64,000 nt of DNA, from UHGV virus genome UHGV-0073881; one strand, written 5' to 3'. Under the pieces are notes generated by a model. The model worked only from the letters and a program-made list of their open reading frames with translations. It made no database searches and had not been told where the DNA came from. Shown one piece after another: positions 4,697 to 61,363 of the stretch. Source of the stretch: a virus. How positions within the stretch are numbered: position 1 is the stretch's first letter; every line of letters begins with the position of its first letter. The translations under genes were made by a program, and so were the position numbers.

Positions 4697-5270
4697 GAAA
4701 GGGATTGTCAGAACTTTGGTTGATGTTATTGGTCACCGTCTAGCACGAGATAAGAATAACAGACCAAACGTTATCAGGGCATACCCATCTGACAACTCAA
4801 ATGATAAAGGTCTAAAACCTGACCAGCCATTTATTACAGTTTACTGTCAAGATGCTACAACGCCTTATGGGTGGGTACTTGATAAATTCGTGGAAGATGA
4901 TGTAGTTTGTTATAGAATTGCTTTTCAGATTCCAGTGTTAATTACTGTGAATGGTAAAGGTGCTCATAGTATTATGCTAGAGCTAAAACAGAGATTAGAG
5001 ATGAGTTCCACAAGGGATTTATTAGCTGAGGAAACAGGAGCATCTGTTCTTGATACCGGAGCTATCCCAAATGATTACACTTATCTTAATACAGACTTTG
5101 AAAATTCTGCACCTCTTGTTGTAACACTCGTAAAAAATTCAGTATTAAAAGATGAACGTGGAAGTATTATTGAACGTGTCATTGTTGATGGTGAGTTAGT
5201 TTATGAGGAAGGACAGGAGCCACCAGAATATACTATCCATCTAGATGTAGACTCCAAAGGGGTAAAATAA
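4671..5270 (+). CDS. hypothetical tail completion protein
   Basis: 199-aa ORF immediately upstream of the sheath gene. Confidence 0.4.
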   Translation: MQLETAELEKGIVRTLVDVIGHRLARDKNNRPNVIRAYPSDNSNDKGLKPDQPFITVYCQDATTPYGWVLDKFVEDDVVCYRIAFQIPVLITVNGKGAHSIMLELKQRLEMSSTRDLLAEETGASVLDTGAIPNDYTYLNTDFENSAPLVVTLVKNSVLKDERGSIIERVIVDGELVYEEGQEPPEYTIHLDVDSKGVK

Positions 5271-6623
5271 ATGTGGAATCCAATTGTTAATGTAGATATT
5301 ACATTGAACACAGCAGGGACTACGAGAGAAGGTTTTGGACTGCCATTATTCTTAGCTTCAACAGATAACTTTGAAGAAAGAATTCGTGGTTATACTTCAC
5401 TAACTGAAGTTGCCGAAGACTTTGATGAAAGTTCTGCTGCATACAAAGCTGCAAAACAGCTATGGAGTCAGACTCCAAAAGTAACTCAACTTTATATTGG
5501 TAGACGTTCTATGCAGTATACCGTTGCTGTTCCTGATGCCGTTGCTGAGAGCACAGAATACTCTCTTACAGTTGCTGTAGGTGGTGGTGTATCTCAGCCA
5601 TTCCAGTACACAGCTAAGGCCGATGATACAGCCCTGATTGTTCTGAATGAATTTAAAACTCAGATTGAAGCAAGCCCTGCTGTTAAAGATGATGTTCAGG
5701 TTAATGTAACAGGTGCTGGTGACTCAGCTACAATGATTATCTCCAAAGCAGGTGATAATGATTTCGTAAAAGTTACCACAACTGGTAAGACTCTTTCAAT
5801 CTCTTCTACGACTGCTGACAGTGCATCAACTGCTCTCTCTGCAATTGAAACGTACTCAACAGATTGGTACTTCATTGCAACAGAAGACAGAACTTCACAG
5901 TTTGTCTTGGCAATGGCATCTGAAATTCAGGCTCGTAAGAAGATTTTCTTCACAGCTAACTCTGATGTGAAAGCTCTACAGGGAACCGACCTAGCTTCTG
6001 CTACAGACGTACCAGCACAGCTTGCTAAATCCAAGTACACTCGTACAGTTTGCTTGTGGCATCACACTGCAAGATACGACTACCCAGAAATGGCTTACAT
6101 TGCTTACGGTGCTCCATATGACGCAGGTTCCATTGCTTGGGGTAACGCTCAGTTGACGGGTGTTGAAACATCTTATCAGCCAGCTAACAAGAGACCTCTG
6201 ACAAGCATTCAGAAATCTGCACTAGATGCACGTAGCTGTAACTTCATTGACCTTGATGGTGGTGTTCCGGTTGTGCGTAGAGGTATCACTTCAGGTGGGG
6301 AATGGATTGATATCGTTCGTGGTGTCGATTGGCTGACTTCTGACTTGAAAACTTCTCTGAGAGACTTGCTAATTAATCAGAAGGGTGGTAAGATTACTTA
6401 TGATGATACTGGTATTACTCGTATTCGTCAAGTCATTGAAACATCTCTTCAGAGAGCGGTTAACAGAAACTTTTTATCATCTTACACCGTTAATGTACCT
6501 AAAGCTTCTCAGGTTTCTTTAGCAGACAAGAAAGCACGTATCCTGAAAGATATTACCTTCCACGGTATTATCGCAGGTGCTATCTTGGATGTTGACCTGA
6601 AAGGTACAGTGGCTTACGAATAA
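5271..6623 (+). CDS. tail sheath protein
   Basis: 450-aa ORF directly followed by a 148-aa tube-sized ORF, a chaperone pair and the tape measure gene, the canonical contractile-tail order. Confidence 0.6.
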   Translation: MWNPIVNVDITLNTAGTTREGFGLPLFLASTDNFEERIRGYTSLTEVAEDFDESSAAYKAAKQLWSQTPKVTQLYIGRRSMQYTVAVPDAVAESTEYSLTVAVGGGVSQPFQYTAKADDTALIVLNEFKTQIEASPAVKDDVQVNVTGAGDSATMIISKAGDNDFVKVTTTGKTLSISSTTADSASTALSAIETYSTDWYFIATEDRTSQFVLAMASEIQARKKIFFTANSDVKALQGTDLASATDVPAQLAKSKYTRTVCLWHHTARYDYPEMAYIAYGAPYDAGSIAWGNAQLTGVETSYQPANKRPLTSIQKSALDARSCNFIDLDGGVPVVRRGITSGGEWIDIVRGVDWLTSDLKTSLRDLLINQKGGKITYDDTGITRIRQVIETSLQRAVNRNFLSSYTVNVPKASQVSLADKKARILKDITFHGIIAGAILDVDLKGTVAYE

Positions 6624-7807: not shown

Positions 7808-10014
7808 TGGCACAATATACAGTTGATAGTTTTATTGTTGAGTTGGGCTTTAGTGAAAAGGTTGTGAAGGGTTTACAAAGAGTTGAAAAGATGGCTATGC
7901 AATCTGCACAACGAATTGAAAGAAACCTGAATAAAGCCTTTGCTGTGAAGCCAAATAAAAACTCTCAAGAAGCTTTAAACAGACTTGTTAAAAACGCTCA
8001 GACTGCTTCGGGCAGAATCAATAAAGCCCTGAACAACTCCCTTAACTTAGACTCCCAAGGTGCAAAGTCTCTGAAGAAATTAGAGACACAAGGTAAGAAG
8101 ACTGCCAAAGAAATTAATAAGGCTCTAAGACAGGCTATGAATGTTGATGGTAAAGTCAAGATTCGTGGTGTTGGTAGAGGCCGTGGTAATTCTAATCCTC
8201 CAATTGGTGGAGGTTCACCAAGAGTTAGACCTGATATTGCTCAGAGACAAATGGAAAGAATGTTTAATAACAATTTCTACTCTGGCCTTACTCGTCGTCT
8301 TGAAACTATTGGTGGACAGGGTAACCAAATGGCTGCTTCTTTCAGAGGCAACTTGCAAGGAATCTATAACAAGTATAAAGGGAGTGGTAAGGTTGGTGAA
8401 TATGAGATGGAAGTTAAAAAACTCATTGACACAACCAAAAGATGGGTAATTGCAGAAAATGCTAGACTTAAGGCAGTCAAAGAATCAGCATGGCTACAGG
8501 ATAGAGCAAACTCTTCACTAAGACAACTAGTAGGTGGTTTTGTTTCTGCATACGCTATGTTAGAATTGGCTCAGAAGACTATTGATGCAGGTGTTAAAAG
8601 ACAATCTGCACAGTTAGCTTCTACGGCAATCTTTGGAGCAGATACACAGCAAGCTAGAATGTTCGCTGCATCGTTCGCTCACCAGATTGGACAGAACTAC
8701 ACAGACACTATGAAGCAGTATTCAAACTTTGCTGCTGGTGCTCAACCAACACTTGGTTTCCAAGGTACTCAAGAGTTCTATAAGAATGCTGCTATGTTTG
8801 CCCGTATTAGAGGGGCATCTGACGAAGACCTGAAAGGTATCATGGTTGCTTTCCAACAGATGGCTTCTAAGGGTAAGATTCAGGCTGAAGAACTTCGTGG
8901 ACAGTTAGGTGACCGTTTAGCTGGTGCTGTACAACTGTTTGCTGACGCGATTGGTAAGACCCCACAGGAACTGGATAAACTGATGAAGGATGGTAAACTT
9001 CTTGCTAAAGACGTTCTTCCTCAAGTTTCTGAGAAGATGAGAGAGTTAGTAGAAGCAGCAGGTGGTATGAATGCCGTGTCTAAGCAGACAGCTACTTCTA
9101 TGGGTCAAGCAAAAGCTATGTGGGACAATACCCTCGTAGCACTGTTTAACAACTCTAGTGAAGGTATTTCACAGTTGTCTAACTCAATTTCAATGTTCTT
9201 ACAAGGTTCCCTTGGTACTGCTGAAGCTTTAGGTACTGGTATTGGATACCTGTTAAAAGGTGCTGGAAACTTACTTGATTTCATTACAGACATTATGTAT
9301 AGAATCTCTGGGCTGTACTACCTATCTATGGGTTATTACAACGAATTAGATGCTAGTCAACAGAAACTTGTAAAAGAAGCTTCTGAGTTCCTTGCAACAG
9401 TTATTGCTATTGGTGCTGCTGTAGCAACGGTCGCTAAAGTGGCGAAGCTTATCACTGGATTCTTTGATACAGCAATTGTACGAAAGATTCTTCAGAGATT
9501 TGGCATTGAGGTGGCTGAGAAAGTTGCACCAAGAGCAGCTCCATTTTTAATGCCACCTCAAGTAAAGGTGGCCTTGGCAACAATTGCACTATCTAGGTCT
9601 TCTGACCCTAATGCTGGAAAGAGATACAATGAGGTCACTCTTCCAAAACCTTTTGAAGATGCTGTATCAAGTGTTACCAACGCTAAACGCCCAATGTTCT
9701 TTGACCAGAATGGACAGTTGCAGTTTGCACAATATACGACTGACACTGATGGTAACATCCAAAGAGTTGATAATGGTATGTCAAATTGGGATATCATTAT
9801 GAACAACTTGTCAGAGTCTTTAAACAACTTTGCAAACAAGTTCAATCAGACCCCTATGATGATGACACCTTCTGGATTACCTATGCAAACTAAGCAGACT
9901 CTTAATGTCACGTTTAACCTTGATGGTAACCAGATTGCTACTAAGATGGTCGATATTACTAACAAGAACCAAGAAGATATTTTGTTAAACTCAGCTTACC
10001 CAGAGGATAATTAA
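7807..10014 (+). CDS. tail tape measure protein
   Basis: 735-aa ORF after the chaperone pair; long helical, A/Q/K-rich sequence with a glycine-rich patch. Confidence 0.75.
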
Positions 10015-10825
10015 TGTTATGGGATAACAACATGCAAATCAAGTACTCTGGAAAGGATGGTATTTATTTCCATCTTAGAGATAATGTAGACGCATTCTTG
10101 ACATTATCTGCAACAGAGCAAATGGAGTATGATTCACCTATGTTGGTGACTACTCAAGCAATGCAAAGTGGTCAGACTATTACTGACAACGTGCAACGTT
10201 CCCCTAAGACAATTTCTATTTCTGGTGTTGTGGTAGTTGGCTACGAAGGTAGCCTTCTACGTACTCGTCAAGGCCAATTAGTAGAAAACTTTATTTCAAC
10301 TGTAGAGACTTGGAGAGACCAGAAGCAAATTATTTCAATCGTCTGTAAAGATGGTATTAAGATTGACGACGCTGTAATTACCCAATTTAAAGCTTCTAAA
10401 GAACACACAATTTCTAATGGTCTTCGTATTCAGATGACCTTCCAAGAAATTAACTTTAAAGCCGTTGTAGGGACTACAGATGTTAGTGCAGCAACTGGTA
10501 AAACATCCACAACTAAAGATGACGGTGTAACTTCTAAAAAGAACACTGGTAATACTACAACATCTCTTGGAAGTGGTAAATTGAATTGTCAATTGCTTTA
10601 TGATATCCAAGCAAGTGGTGTGAGGATTCTTTCTAGTGCAGAGCAAAAAGCACTAGGTAACTGTGGTTTATCTGCAAACACTAATAAAGGTGTAACCACA
10701 TTTAGTGACAAAGCTAATGCTGGAGCAGCTAATGCAATCAGACAAACCTCAGCCAACCAATCAGCAGGTAAAGGGAATGCTTTACAGACTCATTCAGTAA
10801 ATCCTAACAAGAAAGGAAATTATTA

Positions 10826-10826
<1 letters not shown>
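10014..10826 (+). CDS. tail/baseplate protein
   Basis: 270-aa ORF, start overlaps the tape measure stop; first gene of the baseplate block. Confidence 0.4.
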
Positions 10827-12143
<1,317 letters not shown>

Positions 12144-12144
<1 letters not shown>

Positions 12145-12785
12145 TGAAATCCCCTGTAACAAGAATGTCAGGGTACGTTACTGAGTGTTTGGATGAATTT
12201 AAAAAGGAACTCTACACTGGTTTACCAGCTATTATTGTTTCCTATGATGCTAAAACACAATCTGCAACGGTAAGGCCATTATATTCTATTGATGGTCTTC
12301 CAATGCCAGAGATTACAGGTGTTCCAGTTCAGTTCCCTAGTGGTGGTGGAGCATCTTTAACGTTCCCTGTAAAGACAAATGACAGATGCTGGTTAGCATT
12401 CTCTATGCTTCCACTTGATGACTATGTAGTTAATGACAAGAACGTACAGATGGAAACAAATCTAAGAAGAACACATGATATGACTGACTGTGTAGCTTTT
12501 GTAGGTATCTGTACAAGAACTCAGAACTTTAATCCTGACCCAACAGCAGTCAGATTACACTACGGAGATTCAGTATTAAGAATCACTGATGATGGTAATT
12601 TTTGGTTCACTGGTGATGTTCATATTTCTAAGAATCTTTACGTTGAAGAAGATGTAATTGCCAAAGGTGAAGTTCATGGTTCAGATTTTGTCAGTGATAC
12701 TACAGGTGTTAGTTTCAATGAGCATAACCACCATTATTACTGGACTGACGGTGGCGGTGAAGCTGATACAACAGAGGCACAATAA
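12144..12785 (+). CDS. baseplate spike protein (gpV-like)
   Basis: 213-aa ORF upstream of a gpW-sized ORF and a J-like ORF; synteny with P2/Mu baseplates. Confidence 0.45.
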
Positions 12786-13201
12786 TGAAGACAGATTTTG
12801 CAATTAACCTTGGTGGAGACTACGTAGCTAAAATGGGTTCAGACTCTGTTTACGTAGCCCACGGAGACTTAAAAATTATTGGTAACCAAATTAGAATTAT
12901 CCCTGAAGATGATAAAGCTACACAGGTTGCACAAAGATTACATATTAGATGTTTACTAAGGGCTGGAGAAGTATTCTTTAATACGTCTGCTGGATTCCCT
13001 TATTTGCAACTTGCTAAGTTCAAACAGAGAACATCAATTTTTGACAACTATATGAAAGGCTATCTTGTTGAAACGAGAGATGTGACAAACATCTACAATT
13101 ATTCTTCAACAATCGATAGTGCCATGAGAAAAGTTTCAGTTAGCTTTAGTGCAACTACAACTGCTGATACTGTAGAAATTAATGAAGAGGTAAACATTTA
13201 A
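12785..13201 (+). CDS. baseplate wedge protein (gpW/gp25-like)
   Basis: 138-aa ORF between spike-like and J-like ORFs. Confidence 0.45.
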
Positions 13202-14670
13202 TGGCTGGATTAACTACAACTGGTTTGCAGACAAAAAGATATCAAGAAATCTTAGATGATATTAAAGAAAGACTATACAGAGATATTTCACCTAACCTTG
13301 ACGTATCTGAAGATAGCCAGCTTGGACTCTTCTTAGCTTCTGTTTGTAGAGCCTTGGCAGATGCACATGAAATCTTGTCAGAAATCTATGACGGTGGCAC
13401 TATTGACAAAGCTGAGGGATTTAGCCTTGATGATGTAACAGCACTGAATGCTGTATACAGATATGTTGCACAAGCTACGAGAGGTCAGGCTGAGTTTACT
13501 GGTGCATCCGGTTCTCCAGTTCCATCTACAACAAGGCTGAGAAGTACAGCAGGTAATATTTTCTACCCTGTATCAACATTTACGCTAACTCCGTCTTACT
13601 GCGTTGAAGCAAATTTGGAAGTTAACTCTTTACGTACTGACTCAAACTATGTTATTATTATTGATAACGTTGAATACTCATATCAACCAACAAGCTCAGA
13701 TACTGTTACAACACTTTTACAGCACTTAGCAGACTCTATCAATGGTGGTCTCGTTGCTAAAGCGGAAGTTGTTAATGATGGTTCTGTGTTGAAAATCTAT
13801 AAAGACACTGGAGATATTGTTGCCAGAACAAACCCTATGGTTGTAACTGCAACAACCTTCTTGACATTCACAAAGATTACTACAATTAATGATGTAGTGG
13901 CTGAACAGACAGGTGCTTTACCAACTCTGGCAGGAACACTTATTGAGATTGAAACAACTGTAGATGGTCTTGACGGTGTATTTAACAGGTATGACCTAGT
14001 AACTGGACGTGATGAAGAGTCTGATACAGAACTACGTCAGCGTTACCTAGAATCTTTAGCAGTTACTGGTGTGGGTACTTTAGATGCTATCGTTGCTGCT
14101 GTCAAGAGAGTTCAAGGTGTATCTGATGCTTCTGGTGTAGAAAATGACACAGAGACTACTTCTTCTGATGAGTTACCTCCAAAGTCTTTCAAGATTGTCG
14201 TTGTAGGTGGTCAGAACGACAACGTAGCACAGGCTATCTGGGATGCTAAACCTGCTGGTATTAGAGCATACGGCTCTATCTTTGGAACAGCTTATGACTT
14301 AGGTGACTTACCACATAATGTCTACTTTAGCAGACCAATGCCTAAGTATGTTTTTGTCAAGGTAAAATACTCAATGTACGATGAAGAATCTTTGAACATC
14401 CCTGAACAGGATATCCATGACAGAATTGTGCAGGGTATTAACGCTTATGGTAGAACCTTGAAAGTTGGTAATGACGTTATCCCTAACAGAATCTATGGAT
14501 ATGTTTATGACGTTATCCAAGGTATTGAGATTAATGAAATCAAAGTAGCCTTGGCAAATAACCAATCAGTTCCTCCAGCAGATGACCAGTACACAACTGC
14601 AAGAATCACAGTTGATGGTGACCAGTATACCGTATGGGAAAGCAGTCAGTATACCATTACTAAGGAATAA
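13201..14670 (+). CDS. baseplate J-like protein
   Basis: 489-aa ORF in the J position of a P2/Mu-like baseplate operon. Confidence 0.5.
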   Translation: MAGLTTTGLQTKRYQEILDDIKERLYRDISPNLDVSEDSQLGLFLASVCRALADAHEILSEIYDGGTIDKAEGFSLDDVTALNAVYRYVAQATRGQAEFTGASGSPVPSTTRLRSTAGNIFYPVSTFTLTPSYCVEANLEVNSLRTDSNYVIIIDNVEYSYQPTSSDTVTTLLQHLADSINGGLVAKAEVVNDGSVLKIYKDTGDIVARTNPMVVTATTFLTFTKITTINDVVAEQTGALPTLAGTLIEIETTVDGLDGVFNRYDLVTGRDEESDTELRQRYLESLAVTGVGTLDAIVAAVKRVQGVSDASGVENDTETTSSDELPPKSFKIVVVGGQNDNVAQAIWDAKPAGIRAYGSIFGTAYDLGDLPHNVYFSRPMPKYVFVKVKYSMYDEESLNIPEQDIHDRIVQGINAYGRTLKVGNDVIPNRIYGYVYDVIQGIEINEIKVALANNQSVPPADDQYTTARITVDGDQYTVWESSQYTITKE

Positions 14671-22869: not shown

Positions 22870-23213
22870 TTGATATCCTCATTTTTAAAAGTGAATGTTG
22901 TGTAGATAGTACCTTCAACATCTAACCAGATAGCAGTGGCATCCACACCATCAAGGTTATTGAAAAGTTCTTTGATGAACGAGTTACGAATATCCTTTGC
23001 ACAGGTTGTCTCAAGTTTAATGTTTGAGATTGCTGAACCAATTGCCATATAGCCTTTGACACGATTCTTCTCAGAATGCTTGATATCACCTTTCTGTAGT
23101 TTAGCAATCATCTCTACAAGAATCTCATGCCCCCATACCTTCTCAGCCTCTGTAGGCTTACTATAAAAACCAATTGCAAAGTTACCTTTAAAGATTGCAT
23201 TTTCACGTTTCAT
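22854..23213 (-). CDS. hypothetical protein
   Basis: 119-aa ORF in the co-oriented early cluster. Confidence 0.45.
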   Translation of the reverse strand: MKRENAIFKGNFAIGFYSKPTEAEKVWGHEILVEMIAKLQKGDIKHSEKNRVKGYMAIGSAISNIKLETTCAKDIRNSFIKELFNNLDGVDATAIWLDVEGTIYTTFTFKNEDIKCLFP

Positions 23214-23214
23214 A

Positions 23215-23514
23215 CTAATCTACCTTACTTAAGTTGAAGTTTAAGCCAAGTTTATCACAAACACTAATCATGTAGTCAAGAGATACTTTCCCACTACCAT
23301 TCAGGATGTTTGAGACTCTGGCTTGAGATATTTCACAAATCTTTGCTACCTGAATCTGTGAAAGGTTGTTTCTTTTCATGTGTATGTTTAACTTTTTAGA
23401 GATGTAAAACTTCATCTCATCAACATCCATTCCTGCTATATAAGCTTCCATTTCGGCCTCTCTATCTGCCTCCCAATCATCTTGAGGTGCATAAGGGTCA
23501 AAGATACTATTCAT
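23215..23514 (-). CDS. helix-turn-helix DNA-binding protein (XRE-like)
   Basis: 99 aa; C-terminal half matches an HTH pattern (LSQIQVAKICEISQARVSNILNG). Confidence 0.55.
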   Translation of the reverse strand: MNSIFDPYAPQDDWEADREAEMEAYIAGMDVDEMKFYISKKLNIHMKRNNLSQIQVAKICEISQARVSNILNGSGKVSLDYMISVCDKLGLNFNLSKVD

Positions 23515-23710
23515 CTTTCTTTCTCCGTTTACGAGAAGTGTCGATTAACGAATCAAGGTTAGTAGCTCTAACTTGTTCACGAGTACCATTGATGTAGTTA
23601 TCAAGGGACTCTACAACAGTGTTGAAGTCTTTAGCCCAAACTCTGTAAATAACTACGCCGTCATCGTCAATAACTTCACCATAGTCTACTCTACAGATAT
23701 TCTTCTTCAT
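23507..23710 (-). CDS. hypothetical protein
   Basis: 67-aa ORF coupled to neighbours. Confidence 0.4.
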   Translation of the reverse strand: MKKNICRVDYGEVIDDDGVVIYRVWAKDFNTVVESLDNYINGTREQVRATNLDSLIDTSRKRRKKDE

Positions 23711-24087
23711 TGTGGAAGACCCATGCAGTGACGGTTAATGATAAAGTGTTCAACACCGTCTAAAGCACCCTGAGAAACGTGCTCTTTCACAACTTCAATT
23801 TCAGTAATCTGCTCAGGGTTAAGAACGTCAATGTTTTCTGTAACCATCATATCAGAAACATCAAGGTAGTACTGCCCCATTGTGTGGTAATTGAAATCAA
23901 TTATCTTGTCAGTTAATTCAGAAACAGTGTCTTGAGAAATCGGCTTTGTCAATTCTCCAGCTTTAGAAACAACCTTTTGAGCAACCTGACAAGCTTCTAC
24001 TCTGACGTTGTTGTAATCAATCTTTGGCATATCTGCATAAGCATTGAAGCTTAGTGCGGCAAAGATACATAGTACAATCTTTTTCAT
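23707..24087 (-). CDS. secreted/periplasmic hypothetical protein
   Basis: 126 aa with N-terminal signal peptide MKKIVLCIFAALSFNAYA (A-x-A cleavage-like site). Confidence 0.5.
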   Translation of the reverse strand: MKKIVLCIFAALSFNAYADMPKIDYNNVRVEACQVAQKVVSKAGELTKPISQDTVSELTDKIIDFNYHTMGQYYLDVSDMMVTENIDVLNPEQITEIEVVKEHVSQGALDGVEHFIINRHCMGLPQ

Positions 24088-24179
24088 AACTTACTCCTAT
24101 ATAATATTTTGTATACCTACGAGTATAAAAATAAGCTATAACACCTGACTTGTCAACAGATTTTATAGCTTATTTGGCA

Positions 24180-24450
24180 GATTTTTTATAAAGCTACTGC
24201 CATCCTTCCATACCTTACCACACAAGACCAAACCATGCCGTACTCCACTTCACAGGACCAAGCATCACTTAAAAATCCTCTTAGAAGACTCTTAAGTGAT
24301 GCAATCGAATTTTAATGTAGCTCCGATTAACTACCCATACCTGACCGAACCTTACCGAGCCTTACCAGACACTACAGAACAGGACCGCACCGCACCTCAT
24401 TAAAAGACCCTCTTTAAAGACCTTTTAATAAGGAGCCTCCGAAGAGGCTA
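24180..24450. repeat. non-coding modular repeat region A
   Basis: no ORF of 60 aa or more; + strand strongly G-poor; shares modules with region B: 11-bp inverted repeat 24262-24302, covarying hairpin 24303-24340, box 24393-24430, short direct repeats CCTTACC and ACCGC; hairpin AGCCTC-CGAA-GAGGCT at 24431-24446. Confidence 0.6.
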
Positions 24451-24460
24451 CCTAGTCAAC

Positions 24461-24901
24461 TTAGAAGGGTTTTCTACGTTGCTTGTTAATATTAGCTTTC
24501 ATAGCAGCTAAGTGGTTTTGCTGTTCAATCAGTCGTGAACGTTCTTGATGGCTAAGTGTCATAGTGTTCACATTCTCAATTGCTTGAGTGGCTTGTTTTA
24601 AAGCACGACCAATCTTACCAGACATTTTACGTTTTGCAATAGTTGCTTGATGTTTTGGCTCAACTACTCGATAACCGACACCCATTGAAGCAACCAGATA
24701 AATCTTCTCTTCTTTAAGAAGCTTCTCAATAAACTTCTCAAGTCGATTTAGGCGTGTAAGTGCGTAAGCCTTCATTTCATCTTCGTACTTAACAATGTCA
24801 CCTTGATAAGTTGGCTTCACAATACCTAAGAAGGTGTCCATCTCAGAATGTGATACGGTGTCACCGTAACTAAACTTTGCTGCTAATGCTTTTGTATTCA
24901 T
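24461..24901 (-). CDS. hypothetical protein (cassette gene 2)
   Basis: 146 aa with basic C-terminus; flanked by the repeat regions. Confidence 0.5.
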   Translation of the reverse strand: MNTKALAAKFSYGDTVSHSEMDTFLGIVKPTYQGDIVKYEDEMKAYALTRLNRLEKFIEKLLKEEKIYLVASMGVGYRVVEPKHQATIAKRKMSGKIGRALKQATQAIENVNTMTLSHQERSRLIEQQNHLAAMKANINKQRRKPF

Positions 24902-24903
24902 AA

Positions 24904-25509
<606 letters not shown>

Positions 25510-25559
25510 TTAGTTGATTGTTAAGTTGTTTGTAAAGAACCCTCAACAGAAGACTCTTT

Positions 25560-25840
25560 AGAAACTTGGTAGATTTTTAACGTGGCTACTACCATCCACC
25601 CATATCATACCAAACCTGACCAAATCTTACCGCACCCAACATCGCCTAACCTTACCACACCTCATTAAAAGACCCTGTTTAAAGACCTTTTAAAAAGGTA
25701 AGTCTCATTTTAATGTAGCTGAGACTAACTACCCATACTAAACCTCACCGCACCTCACCGAGCCGCGCATTACCAAACCAGACCAAACCTTGCCTCACAT
25801 CACTTAAAAATCCTCTTAGAAGACTCTTAAGTGATGCTGG
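25560..25840. repeat. non-coding modular repeat region B
   Basis: G-poor + strand; same modules as region A in a different order: box 25658-25698, covarying hairpin 25701-25740, inverted repeat 25798-25837, direct repeats CCTCACCG and ACCAAACC. Confidence 0.6.
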
Positions 25841-25900
25841 TGAGTACCCGTTGGTTTATGCTGCTTAGTATACTCACCAAATTTTCTAGGTCAACAACTT

Positions 25901-27208: not shown

Positions 27209-27454
27209 TTAATATCCTTCGTCAATAACGGTGATGTGTTGAGTGCTTGACTTACCATACCTGTAAGAAGTTGTTGTCTGTGAATTTGGGCAACGGACTA
27301 CTATTAAGTCATATTTAAATGTTGACCAATTAAGTTTGTATATTGAACAATCTCTCATCTCTGGAGGTAACTCATAGCTACTGTCTTGTTTGTCATAACT
27401 TGGGTTACAGCCAGTTAGAAAAAGCACTCCAAGTGCAATGATTGTTTTCCACAT
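27209..27454 (-). CDS. small lipoprotein
   Basis: 81 aa; signal peptide plus lipobox-like LTGC (MWKTIIALGVLFLTGC); three further Cys. Confidence 0.55.
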   Translation of the reverse strand: MWKTIIALGVLFLTGCNPSYDKQDSSYELPPEMRDCSIYKLNWSTFKYDLIVVRCPNSQTTTSYRYGKSSTQHITVIDEGY

Positions 27455-60852: not shown

Positions 60853-61200
60853 ATGACATTCAAAGAATTTTGTCAAGCAGCTTTTGTAATCATGTTTTTG
60901 TTAGGTGTAGGTGCTTGGGGTGGCTATACTTACAAGACTAGCCAAGTTAACGAGAAAGAGTTGACTAATCAGAAGCTTGTTAGTGTTGCTAAGGATGCTT
61001 ACCAAGAAGGTTTAGCAAATCTTAGCGCTAATTACAAAAATGATTTGAAAGATGTGCTTGCTAAAAACAAACACACAAAAGAGGTATTGACCTATGAAAA
61101 AACTAAGACAGAGTTTTATAATATTTGTGCTACTGAGCCTTATGTCAGGGTGTTCAACCTACAAAGTGAACAATACCTTCAAAAACTCCCAAGTAAGTGA
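60853..61200 (+). CDS. i-spanin-like protein (inner-membrane anchored)
   Basis: 115 aa; N-terminal TM helix AAFVIMFLLGVGAWGG, then charged coiled-coil-like periplasmic domain; its 3' end contains the start of an out-of-frame lipoprotein ORF. Confidence 0.45.
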   Translation: MTFKEFCQAAFVIMFLLGVGAWGGYTYKTSQVNEKELTNQKLVSVAKDAYQEGLANLSANYKNDLKDVLAKNKHTKEVLTYEKTKTEFYNICATEPYVRVFNLQSEQYLQKLPSK

Positions 61201-61363
61201 GAGTGACAAGTACACTCAGGAAGAGACTAGGTACACTGTCAAGGGTACTAAAGGTGAAGACCTTGCTAGTGCTATGGAGTTTTACCGTGATGGATTCTAT
61301 GAATGTACTATCAAGGCAAACAATTTGATTGATATGATTTTGTTAGGGAATAAGCAGCAATGA
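61094..61363 (+). CDS. o-spanin-like lipoprotein
   Basis: 89 aa; signal peptide with lipobox-like LMSGC; start embedded in the upstream gene in another frame with GAGG 9 nt upstream (Rz/Rz1-type overlap). Confidence 0.45.
   Translation: MKKLRQSFIIFVLLSLMSGCSTYKVNNTFKNSQVSESDKYTQEETRYTVKGTKGEDLASAMEFYRDGFYECTIKANNLIDMILLGNKQQ

What the first reader, a model, noticed from the sequence alone, without database searches (positions are those of the whole stretch)
23707..24087. Secreted early protein of unknown function
A 126-aa ORF with a clear Sec signal peptide, at the end of the - strand early cluster and adjacent to repeat region A. Exported early phage proteins often modify the envelope or interfere with envelope-associated defences.
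Basis: inference. Interest (0 to 1): 0.35.

Follow-up and report, generated by a model that had tools for sequence, protein, structure and literature searches.

The report
Exported phage helical-bundle protein, function untested
This is a real gene of a Felix O1-like phage for a small protein that is almost certainly exported to the bacterial periplasm. Its job is unknown, but a distant copy kept by a parasitic "satellite" remnant in E. coli hints at a role in phage-versus-phage competition at the cell envelope.

Summary
The 126-aa ORF (24087..23707, minus strand) is real. It belongs to PHROG 4332, is syntenic in 259 phage records, and is under purifying selection (dN/dS 0.2-0.44).

**Export signal.** The N-terminus is a textbook Sec/SPase I signal peptide (MKK, an 11-residue hydrophobic core, AYA|D). 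This pattern and exactly two mature cysteines are kept in all 14 homologues examined, down to 22% identity.

**Fold.** AlphaFold2 gives a confident three-helix bundle. It has no specific match in PDB or BFVD.

**Published data on orthologues.**
- Felix O1 ORF87 is transcribed, peaks at 25 min (middle class, not early), and is absent from the virion proteome.
- SUSP1 gp037 is dispensable in a CRISPRi-ART screen.

**Position.** The gene is not at the end of the cluster. It opens a promoter-led sub-operon just downstream of a VIPR locus; the "repeat region A" is the vrRNA array. It is not part of VIPR.

**New observation.** A distant homologue sits in a decayed Ounavirinae-parasitising satellite between lafU and dinB in 22 E. 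coli genomes.

**Best guess.** It is a Spackle-like periplasmic binding protein acting in superinfection exclusion or inter-phage conflict. This function is inferred, not shown. The finding is ordinary to moderately interesting.

The parts
23707..24087 (-). Complete CDS, 126 codons plus TGA. Orthologue of Felix O1 ORF87 (NP_944938) and SUSP1 AVU07_agp037. Member of PHROG 4332.
24034..24087 (-). Predicted Sec signal peptide, codons 1-18: MKKIVLCIFAALSFNAYA. Predicted SPase I cut is between A18 and D19.
   Evidence: The pattern is conserved in 14 divergent homologues. AF2 pLDDT is below 50 for residues 1-16.
23710..24033 (-). Mature domain, 108 aa, pI 4.6. Predicted three-helix bundle with helices at residues 25-42, 52-83 and 91-118. 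Conserved GELxKP loop, D60, D64, Y67, Y73, D87, G111, F115, R119.
23989..23991 (-). Codon of Cys33, invariant. Proposed partner of Cys121 in a periplasmic disulfide.
23725..23727 (-). Codon of Cys121, invariant.
24094..24098 (-). Shine-Dalgarno AGGAG, 6 nt before the ATG.
24151..24156 (-). -35-like hexamer TTGACA. Invariant in 8 phages, including ones with no vrRNA array.
24122..24133 (-). -10 candidates. TATTTT has a 17-nt spacer in this phage. TATACT is invariant and sits 16 nt from TTGACA in Michonne and ESh22.
23707..23710 (-). ATGA overlap. The stop codon of this gene overlaps the start of the next gene (67 aa, PHROG 4473), which is followed by a Cro/C1-type HTH regulator. This suggests translational coupling within one operon.

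Best explanation
**What the sequence shows or supports**
- The gene encodes a precursor that the Sec system exports.
- Signal peptidase I is predicted to cut it after A-Y-A18. This releases a 108-aa acidic periplasmic protein (pI 4.6).
- The mature protein is predicted to fold into a three-helix bundle. Its two invariant cysteines (C33, C121) probably form a DsbA-made disulfide.
- The gene is transcribed from its own conserved sigma-70-type promoter.
- It is the first gene of a sub-operon: exported protein, a 67-aa protein, a Cro/C1 HTH regulator, and so on down to DHFR and ThyA. The sub-operon lies inside the DNA-metabolism block, immediately downstream of the phage's VIPR locus. The gene is not part of VIPR.

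**Inferred mechanism**
- The protein is a non-enzymatic periplasmic binding protein.
- It acts in competition between phages, most likely by superinfection exclusion at the envelope or DNA-entry step.
- This is the way T4 Spackle works, but Spackle's target is not expected here because no tail lysozyme is evident in this phage.
- The distant homologue retained in satellite-derived islets of E. coli would do the same job for the resident element.

**Confidence by tier**
- Real expressed gene: about 0.95.
- Exported and cleaved: about 0.85.
- Disulfide-stapled helical bundle: about 0.7.
- Exclusion or inter-phage conflict function: about 0.3.
For: **Gene reality and conservation:**

**Signal-peptide pattern and two invariant cysteines, in all 14 homologues down to 22% identity:**

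**AF2 model:** pLDDT 88.7, pTM 0.77, three helices, N-terminal 16 residues unstructured.

**Promoter:** TTGACA and TATACT are invariant across 8 phages, including ones without VIPR.

**Expression:** the Felix O1 orthologue is transcribed and is not among the virion proteins (PMC3185647).

**Dispensability:** the SUSP1 orthologue has CRISPRi-ART fitness -0.76 and is classed 'Not Fit'. It is not needed for growth on a lab strain, as expected of a conflict gene (PMC11879866 supplementary file 16).

**Fast divergence:** the protein is 24-65% identical between phages where the 67-aa, HTH and 119-aa neighbours are 43-93%.

**Satellite homologue:**
- hhalign gives 98% probability over the full length with both cysteines aligned. 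HMMER gives E=3.8e-7 against 1.84 billion representatives.
- It lies in a decayed copy of the satellite that the VIPR preprint says parasitises SUSP1-type phages. It is present in 22 of 5426 complete E. coli genomes, between lafU and dinB.

**Closest analogue:** T4 Spackle is an early, signal-peptide-bearing, 75-aa helical bundle with one disulfide joining an N-proximal and a C-proximal cysteine (PMC7677548).
Against: - No experiment shows export, cleavage, the disulfide or any phenotype.
- There is no sequence or fold similarity to Spackle, RI or any characterised exclusion protein.
- Pfam found no lysozyme or other peptidoglycan-hydrolase domain in ten tail and baseplate proteins of the window. 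The Bas63 cryo-EM paper mentions no lysozyme. A Spackle-type target is therefore missing.
- The CRISPRi-ART screen has false negatives; even DNA ligase scored 'Not Fit'.
- The satellite homologue is basic (pI 8.5-8.8) while the phage proteins are acidic (pI 4.4-5.5). The two may bind different partners.
- The homologue was seen only in reduced satellite remnants, not in an intact satellite.
- A conserved gene in 259 lytic phages could equally serve a housekeeping envelope role that is invisible on lab strains.
Confidence: 0.35

Rival explanations
1. It is a counter-defence or host-modulating factor. The exported protein binds a host periplasmic or envelope component, for example an envelope-associated defence effector, a stress-sensor or an LPS/peptidoglycan-processing enzyme. 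This keeps the infected cell permissive.
For: - The evidence for periplasmic localisation is the same as for the best explanation.
- It diverges fast, as expected for host-interaction proteins.
- It is dispensable on a defence-poor lab strain.
- Periplasmic anti-entry defences do exist, for example the HXS system (PMC13128918, listed).
Against: - There is no match to any PADLOC model or known anti-defence family.
- Nothing identifies a host target.
- A resident satellite remnant has little reason to keep an inhibitor of its own host's defences, yet it retains a homologue.
Confidence: 0.25
2. It is a lysis-timing factor: a periplasmic antiholin (like T4 RI) or an inhibitor of the phage's own endolysin or spanins. 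It would delay lysis until assembly is complete.
For: - It is a small exported helical protein made before late genes, like T4 RI (my own knowledge of RI; Felix O1 timing).
- Ounavirinae carry rIIA and rIIB (PMC3185647; PMC11879866).
- The holin of Felix O1 is unidentified.
Against: - The hydrophobic segment is short (11 residues), strongly hydrophobic and followed by AxA. It is not a roughly 20-residue weakly hydrophobic SAR domain.
- No sequence or fold match to any PDB chain was found.
- The spanin pair lies elsewhere, at 60853-61363.
- The gene sits in the DNA-metabolism block.
- This role would not explain a copy kept in a non-lytic satellite remnant.
Confidence: 0.12
3. It is not released into the periplasm. 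The N-terminal hydrophobic stretch is an uncleaved membrane anchor, or the protein stays cytoplasmic.
For: - No SignalP run or experiment is available.
- My rule-based detector has a high background.
- Cys7 lies in the h-region of this allele.
Against: - An 11-residue core is too short for a stable transmembrane helix.
- The small-x-small site is conserved in all 14 homologues although the residues themselves differ.
- Cys7 is not conserved and is not in a lipobox, because the -1 residue is Leu.
- AF2 does not pack residues 1-16 into the fold.
- Exactly two invariant cysteines fit an oxidising compartment.
Confidence: 0.1
4. It is an all-alpha MazG/PRA-PH-like pyrophosphohydrolase or a metal-binding protein, using the conserved E45, D60, D64 and D87.
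For: - A weak Pfam PF01503 hit (E=0.0078, 17 bits), seen in 5 of 11 family members at E<=0.1.
- Foldseek lists a MazG-like chain, 2yf3, at E=5.
Against: - The hit is below the gathering threshold (21.3 bits).
- A profile search of PDB sequences finds no MazG or HisE chain even at E<=10.
- The protein has three helices, not four.
- There is no NTP pool in the periplasm.
Confidence: 0.03

Closest known systems
T4 Spackle (gp61.3), a periplasmic superinfection-exclusion protein
   Same: - Encoded by a virulent myophage and made before late genes.
- Has a cleavable signal peptide.
- Small mature protein: 75 aa for Spackle, 108 aa here.
- Compact alpha-helical bundle.
- A single disulfide between an N-proximal and a C-proximal cysteine (C29-C81 in Spackle; C33 and C121 here).
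- Not essential in the lab (PMC7677548).
   Different: - Spackle inhibits the gp5 tail lysozyme. No tail lysozyme or peptidoglycan-hydrolase domain was found in this phage's tail and baseplate proteins.
T4 RI antiholin
   Same: A small helical periplasmic protein of a virulent phage, with an N-terminal export signal (my own knowledge of RI).
   Different: - RI uses a signal-anchor-release domain and binds the holin T. Here the signal is a short classical one with AxA, and no holin partner is known.
- No similarity was detected in the PDB searches.
Exported exclusion lipoproteins of lytic and temperate phages (T5 Llp, Cor)
   Same: They are exported, act at the envelope, are dispensable in the lab, and protect the infected or lysogenic cell from related phages. 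The T5 Llp paper PMC9586334 was listed; the rest is my own knowledge.
   Different: These are lipoproteins that block an outer-membrane receptor. This protein has no lipobox, and Felix O1-type phages use LPS as receptor (PMC3185647).
PHROG 4332 (Felix O1 ORF87 / SUSP1 gp037 family)
   Same: Direct membership: a full-length HMM match at E=3.5e-50, at the same position in every relative inspected.
   Different: The family has no assigned function. This allele is a divergent branch: 31-33% identical to the Felix O1 type, 44-49% to the Suspvirus and Mooglevirus types, 95% to pEC-M719-6WT.1.

Membership tests
Sec/SPase I-exported proteins (classical signal peptide) | Positively charged n-region with no acidic residue | tested here: met
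   MKK gives net +2. All 14 homologues also have +2.
Sec/SPase I-exported proteins (classical signal peptide) | Uncharged hydrophobic h-region of about 7-15 residues, shorter than a transmembrane helix | tested here: met
   IVLCIFAALSF is 11 residues with mean Kyte-Doolittle 2.9. Homologues have 11-17 residues.
Sec/SPase I-exported proteins (classical signal peptide) | Small neutral residues at -3 and -1, with no Pro at +1 | tested here: met
   A-Y-A|D here. Homologues have AAA|M, ASA|M, AVA|M and SFG|K by the rule, and VNA|T in the Felix O1 type by eye.
Sec/SPase I-exported proteins (classical signal peptide) | Demonstrated cleavage and periplasmic location | not testable with these tools
   No SignalP and no experiment. 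This needs fractionation, MS or PhoA fusions.
PHROG 4332 | Full-length match to the family HMM | tested here: met
   E=3.5e-50, residues 1-124 against profile positions 1-126 of 126.
T4 Spackle family | Sequence or fold homology to Spackle | tested here: not met
   [not shown]
T4 Spackle family | A virion tail lysozyme to inhibit | tested here: inconclusive
   Ten tail and baseplate proteins have no lysozyme or hydrolase Pfam domain, but three of them have no Pfam hit at all. The Bas63 cryo-EM paper does not mention lysozyme.
T4 Spackle family | Signal peptide plus a small helical bundle with one disulfide | tested here: met
   The disulfide is inferred from two invariant cysteines.
T4 RI-type antiholin | N-terminal SAR domain (about 20 weakly hydrophobic residues, not cleaved by SPase I) | tested here: not met
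   The core is 11 residues, strongly hydrophobic, and followed by a conserved AxA.
i-spanin (Rz-like) | N-terminal transmembrane anchor, extended coiled-coil periplasmic domain, and a cognate o-spanin lipoprotein gene embedded, overlapping or adjacent | tested here: not met
   The predicted fold is a compact three-helix bundle. The next gene has no lipobox. A separate Rz-like gene (PHROG 1152) overlapped by a lipobox ORF lies at 60853-61363.
Bacterial or phage lipoprotein (Llp/Cor type) | Lipobox [LVI][ASTVI][GAS]C at the end of the signal peptide | tested here: not met
   The only N-terminal Cys (C7) is preceded by Leu and is not conserved.
MazG / PRA-PH all-alpha NTP pyrophosphohydrolases (PF01503) | Score above the Pfam gathering threshold | tested here: not met
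   17.0 bits against a threshold of 21.3. The best E-value among 11 family members is 0.0078.
VIPR system (vipr, vap, vrRNA) | Co-occurrence with vipr/vap genes | tested here: not met
   Orthologues are present in phages with no vipr/vap genes: Michonne, EcSzw_1, ESh22, Felix O1, pEC-M719 and the L007 metagenomic phage. The preprint describes only vipr, vap and vrRNAs.

The most novel reading that the evidence does not exclude
PHROG 4332 proteins are a new family of periplasmic 'gatekeepers'. They would block genome entry of Felix O1-type myophages, for example by binding the incoming tape-measure or hub proteins as these cross the periplasm. The phage would use its copy to exclude competitors. 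The Ounavirinae-parasitising satellite would carry a diverged basic version. E. coli lineages such as NC101 would have domesticated that version, in a satellite remnant between lafU and dinB, as a small anti-Ounavirinae defence gene. Together with the adjacent VIPR locus, this stretch of the phage genome would then be an inter-phage warfare island.
Probability: 0.18. Interest if true: 0.6.

Novelty: new variant of a known kind. Interest (0 to 1): 0.4.

Why it matters
Felix O1-type phages are widely used for Salmonella and E. coli typing, biocontrol and therapy, yet most of their non-structural genes have no known function.

This gene is one of very few in the window whose product should leave the cytoplasm. 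It is conserved in about 260 sequenced phages, evolves fast and is dispensable in the lab. That is the profile of a conflict gene.

If it is an exclusion or entry-blocking factor, three things follow:
- It would be a second, unrelated solution to the problem T4 solves with Spackle.
- It would affect how phage cocktails of related Ounavirinae interfere with each other.
- Its homologue in E. coli satellite remnants would be a previously unlisted resistance determinant against this phage group.

If it is only a housekeeping periplasmic protein, the finding is ordinary.

Tried and rejected
- **Family libraries.** Pfam, NCBIfam and PADLOC gave nothing above threshold. The sub-threshold PRA-PH/MazG hit was followed up across family members and against PDB, then rejected.
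- **Exhaustive profile search.** Against 1.84 billion representatives there were ten hits at E<=0.001. Three are known subtypes and three are the remote relatives P0031, P0033 and P0036. Of the remaining four, three long repetitive proteins (P0030, P0032, P0034) and P0035 were dismissed as compositional.
- **Collection scans.** Scans of genome contigs with P0033 and with alignment A2, and of viral contigs with P0033, found nothing. Alignment A3 was too divergent to make search patterns. tblastn of P0033 against plasmids found nothing.
- **Spanin hypothesis.** Rejected, because a separate Rz-like gene overlapped by a lipobox ORF is present at 60853-61363.
- **Lipoprotein hypothesis.** Rejected, because there is no lipobox.
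- **'Part of VIPR' hypothesis.** Rejected, because orthologues occur in phages without vipr/vap genes.
- **Positive selection.** Not found: dN/dS is below 1 in all pairs, although higher than in most neighbouring genes.
- **Rule-based signal-peptide scan.** Too unspecific on its own: 7 hits observed against 3.9 in shuffles.
- **Yersinia phage P778.** Looked at for synteny but uninformative.
- **Erwinia, Hafnia and Yersinia Ounavirinae.** They show no detectable homologue. Only 259 records have this gene, against 301 with the neighbouring 119-aa gene.

Full report
**What the window is.** The window comes from a Felix O1-like myophage of the subfamily Ounavirinae. Over 23000-24342 its closest record is Escherichia phage pEC-M719-6WT.1, at 97.7% nucleotide identity. 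From about 24070 leftward in window coordinates only that phage and the Mooglevirus-type Shigella phages ESh21/ESh22 (79.6%) match at megablast level. From 24070 rightward, some 230 Felixounavirus and Suspvirus records match at about 90%. There is therefore a mosaic breakpoint at the 5' end of the gene in question. The ORF map has three blocks:
- a plus-strand structural block, 1-20094;
- a minus-strand block from thyA (20131) through DHFR, the target, DNA ligase and DNA polymerase (to about 31500);
- plus-strand genes beyond that.

**Observation check.** The ORF at 24087..23707 (minus strand, 126 aa) exists, starts with ATG, and has AGGAG 6 nt upstream. Several results show it is a real gene:
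- It matches PHROG 4332 (unknown function) over its full length at E=3.5e-50.
- tblastn finds full-length matches in 259 phage records. In every relative inspected the match lies between the DNA ligase side and a 63-70 aa gene followed by a Cro/C1-type HTH regulator.
- Nei-Gojobori dN/dS is 0.21-0.44 in five pairwise comparisons, so selection is purifying although more relaxed than in most neighbours.

**Signal peptide.** The N-terminus reads MKK-IVLCIFAALSF-NAYA|D. It has a +2 n-region, an 11-residue uncharged core with mean hydropathy 2.9, and small residues at -3 and -1. My home-made rule is not specific on its own: it hits 7 of 171 window ORFs against 3.9 in shuffled controls. The persuasive evidence is comparative. 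All 14 non-identical homologues, down to 22% identity, keep the +2 n-region, an 11-17 residue core and a small-x-small site, while the residues themselves change. Each also has exactly two cysteines in the mature part, at aligned positions C33 and C121. Cys7 in the h-region is not conserved and is not in a lipobox.

- The gene is not at the end of the minus-strand cluster. It lies in its middle.
- 'Early' is not supported. The Felix O1 orthologue is ORF87 (NP_944938, 127 aa, pI 4.8). It was RT-PCR positive and maximally expressed at 25 min, the 'middle' class, together with ligase, polymerase and thyA. It is not among the virion proteins found by mass spectrometry (PMC3185647).

**Structure and family.** AlphaFold2 on an 18-sequence alignment gives mean pLDDT 88.7 and pTM 0.77. 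Residues 1-16 are below 50. The rest forms three long helices, 25-42, 52-83 and 91-118. Conserved positions outside the core are the GELxKP loop between helices 1 and 2, D60/D64/Y67 on one face of helix 2, Y73, D87, G111/F115/R119 on helix 3, and the two cysteines. The mature protein is acidic, pI 4.6. No characterised relative was found:
- Nothing in Pfam above threshold, and nothing in NCBIfam or PADLOC.
- Nothing in PDB by profile search.
- Only its own family in BFVD.
- A sub-threshold PRA-PH/MazG hit did not stand up.

An exhaustive HMMER profile search of 1.84 billion representatives found only the three known subtypes plus two remote full-length relatives. The family is small.

**Genomic setting and expression.** The gene is preceded by a 373-bp intergenic region. 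An alignment of the upstream regions of eight phages shows TTGACA (24156-24151) and TATACT (24127-24122) invariant in all of them. This includes Michonne, ESh22 and a remote metagenomic phage that lack the repeats. In Michonne and ESh22 the spacing is a canonical 16 nt. In this window TTGACA-17-TATTTT is the better-spaced pair. The promoter scanner on its own finds no more sites than shuffles do, so here too conservation is the evidence. The stop codon overlaps the start of the next gene (ATGA), which suggests translational coupling. The gene therefore opens a sub-operon: exported protein, a 67-aa protein, the HTH regulator, and so on to DHFR and ThyA.

**The 'repeat region A' next to the gene is a VIPR array.**
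- The two genes just upstream, 24904..25506 and 24461..24901, are 97% and 99% identical to SUSP1 agp039 and agp038. These are the two protein-coding genes lying between the repeat-bearing intergenic regions of SUSP1, which fits the two-gene VIPR locus of the preprint.
- The only four YNNGG-repeat tracts in the whole window flank these two genes on the minus strand.
- This matches the Viral Interference Programmable Repeat system described in bioRxiv 10.64898/2026.04.26.720920.

The target gene is not part of that system. Orthologues occur in phages without vipr/vap genes.

**Evidence bearing on function.**
1. In the transcriptome-wide CRISPRi-ART screen of SUSP1, the orthologue AVU07_agp037 scored -0.76 and was classed 'Not Fit'. 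It is dispensable on the lab strain (PMC11879866 supplementary file 16). The screen has false negatives, since ligase was also 'Not Fit'.
2. The protein diverges faster than three of its four downstream neighbours: 24-65% identity against 43-93% for the 67-aa, HTH and 119-aa genes across the same phage pairs.
3. One of the two remote relatives (P0031, hhalign 98.7%) is the syntenic gene of a distant Ounavirinae-like metagenomic phage.
4. The other (P0033, hhalign 98%, full length, both cysteines aligned) is not in a phage. It sits between a 316-aa HTH protein gene and a resolvase gene, in an element inserted in a gut-metagenome chromosome.

**The element carrying P0033 is a satellite remnant.** Related DNA occurs in 211 complete E. 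coli genomes. In strain GB089 the element also carries a Dit-like baseplate hub 69% identical to the window's hub and a tape-measure protein 32% identical. This matches the satellite that the VIPR preprint reports as the main natural target of SUSP1-clade vrRNAs and as a likely parasite of these phages. The P0033-type gene itself is present in 22 of 5426 complete E. coli genomes. In the two inspected, NC101 and O125ac strain C 236-04A, the setting is the same: a reduced remnant of about 5.4 kb between lafU and dinB. The remnant keeps a baseplate pseudogene stub, the HTH gene, the exported-protein gene, a resolvase and a large recombinase. The islet version keeps the signal-peptide pattern and the two cysteines but is basic, pI 8.5-8.8.

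**Most likely mechanism.** Shown or strongly supported by sequence: this is a real, transcribed, non-virion gene whose product carries a classical cleavable signal peptide and a helical-bundle mature domain with two invariant cysteines.

Inferred: the protein is exported by Sec, cut after A18, and oxidised by DsbA to a C33-C121 disulfide. It then acts as a non-enzymatic periplasmic binding protein. The combination of periplasmic location, lab dispensability, rapid divergence, subfamily-wide conservation and a homologue kept by a resident satellite remnant is best explained by a role in competition between phages at the envelope, that is, superinfection exclusion or blocking of entry.

The closest known analogue is T4 Spackle. 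It is an early, signal-peptide-bearing, 75-aa helical bundle with a C29-C81 disulfide that inhibits the gp5 tail lysozyme (PMC7677548). The resemblance is one of architecture and lifestyle only. There is no detectable homology. No tail lysozyme is evident in this phage or mentioned for Bas63, so the target would have to be something else, perhaps the tape-measure or hub proteins that cross the periplasm. I put export at about 0.85 and the exclusion function at about 0.3.

**Rivals.**
- A counter-defence or host-envelope modulator (0.25). This is compatible with everything except the retention of a homologue by a resident element.
- A lysis-timing factor such as an antiholin (0.12). It is weakened by the non-SAR signal, the separate spanin pair at 60853-61363 and the genomic position.
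- An unexported or membrane-anchored protein (0.1).
- A MazG-like enzyme or metal-binding protein (0.03).

**Novelty and verdict.** The gene belongs to an already catalogued but uncharacterised phage family, so the ORF itself is not new. What is new here:
- the comparative case for export;
- the confident three-helix-bundle model with no structural relative;
- the corrected timing and operon position;
- the link to a homologue in satellite-derived islets of E. coli;
- the recognition that the neighbouring repeats are a VIPR array.

If the exclusion hypothesis holds, this is a new, unrelated family doing a known kind of job, that is, a new variant of a known kind. Interest is moderate (0.4). 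The hypothesis is cheap to test with a plasmid-expression and phage-challenge experiment.

Noticed in passing
window 24088-25900, minus strand: A complete SUSP1-clade VIPR locus. The genes at 24904..25506 (true start probably at M6) and 24461..24901 are 97% and 99% identical to SUSP1 agp039 and agp038. The only four YNNGG (GGY/NN) repeat tracts in the window flank them: 25733-25797 and 25610-25664 upstream, 24335-24369 and 24208-24242 downstream. It matches the vrRNAs of bioRxiv 10.64898/2026.04.26.720920.
   Followed up: yes
L014 (Felix O1) 2633-2914; L001 (pEC-M719-6WT.1) 5089-5543: Felix O1 and pEC-M719-6WT.1 have a GGY/NN-type repeat tract and the conserved tail upstream of the orthologue, but no vipr/vap genes between it and the ligase gene. 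These look like orphan vrRNA-like sequences.
   Followed up: partly
window 24125-24205, minus strand: The conserved sequence after the last repeat tract holds two hairpins (GGCAG...CUGCC, and AAAUAAGCUAUAA...UUAUAGCUUAUUU followed by a U-run). The TTGACA -35 element lies in the loop of the second hairpin. The putative vrRNA 3' tail or terminator and the promoter of the exported-protein operon therefore appear to overlap. The palindrome could alternatively be an operator for the downstream HTH regulator.
   Followed up: partly
L016 (E. coli NC101) 8513-13922; L018 7513-12922; L010-L012: A satellite remnant of about 5.4 kb lies between lafU and dinB in 22 of 5426 complete E. coli genomes. It carries a basic (pI about 8.5) distant homologue of the exported protein (WP_001350217 / WP_225567618), a baseplate pseudogene stub, an HTH gene, a resolvase and a large recombinase. 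In strain GB089 the fuller satellite (hub 69% and tape measure 32% identical to the window's proteins) has noncoding DNA in that slot instead.
   Followed up: partly
window 60853-61363, plus strand: A probable overlapping spanin pair. ORF 60853..61200 (115 aa) matches the Rz-like spanin PHROG 1152 at E=1.4e-35. The overlapping ORF 61094..61363 (89 aa) starts MKKLRQSFIIFVLLSLMSG|C, which has a lipobox and makes it an o-spanin candidate. PHROG 4180 lists it as unknown function.
   Followed up: partly
window 27209-27454, minus strand: A second exported-looking product in the same minus-strand block. It is an 81-aa ORF starting MWKTIIALGVLFLTG|C, with a lipobox (PHROG 902, unknown function), just upstream of the ligase gene. 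It is a candidate lipoprotein.
   Followed up: no
window about 24070: A mosaic breakpoint at the 5' end of the target gene. Rightward of about 24070, some 230 Felixounavirus and Suspvirus records match at about 90% nucleotide identity. Leftward, only pEC-M719-6WT.1 (97.7%) and ESh21/22 (79.6%) match. This suggests module exchange with a junction at the promoter, RBS and first codons.
   Followed up: partly
window 23507-23710, minus strand: The translationally coupled downstream 67-aa protein (PHROG 4473) is much better conserved than the target (43-90% identity). It ends in an invariant basic tail, VRAT..DSLIDTSRKRRKKDE, which suggests nucleic-acid binding. It is followed by a Cro/C1-type HTH regulator.
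   Followed up: no
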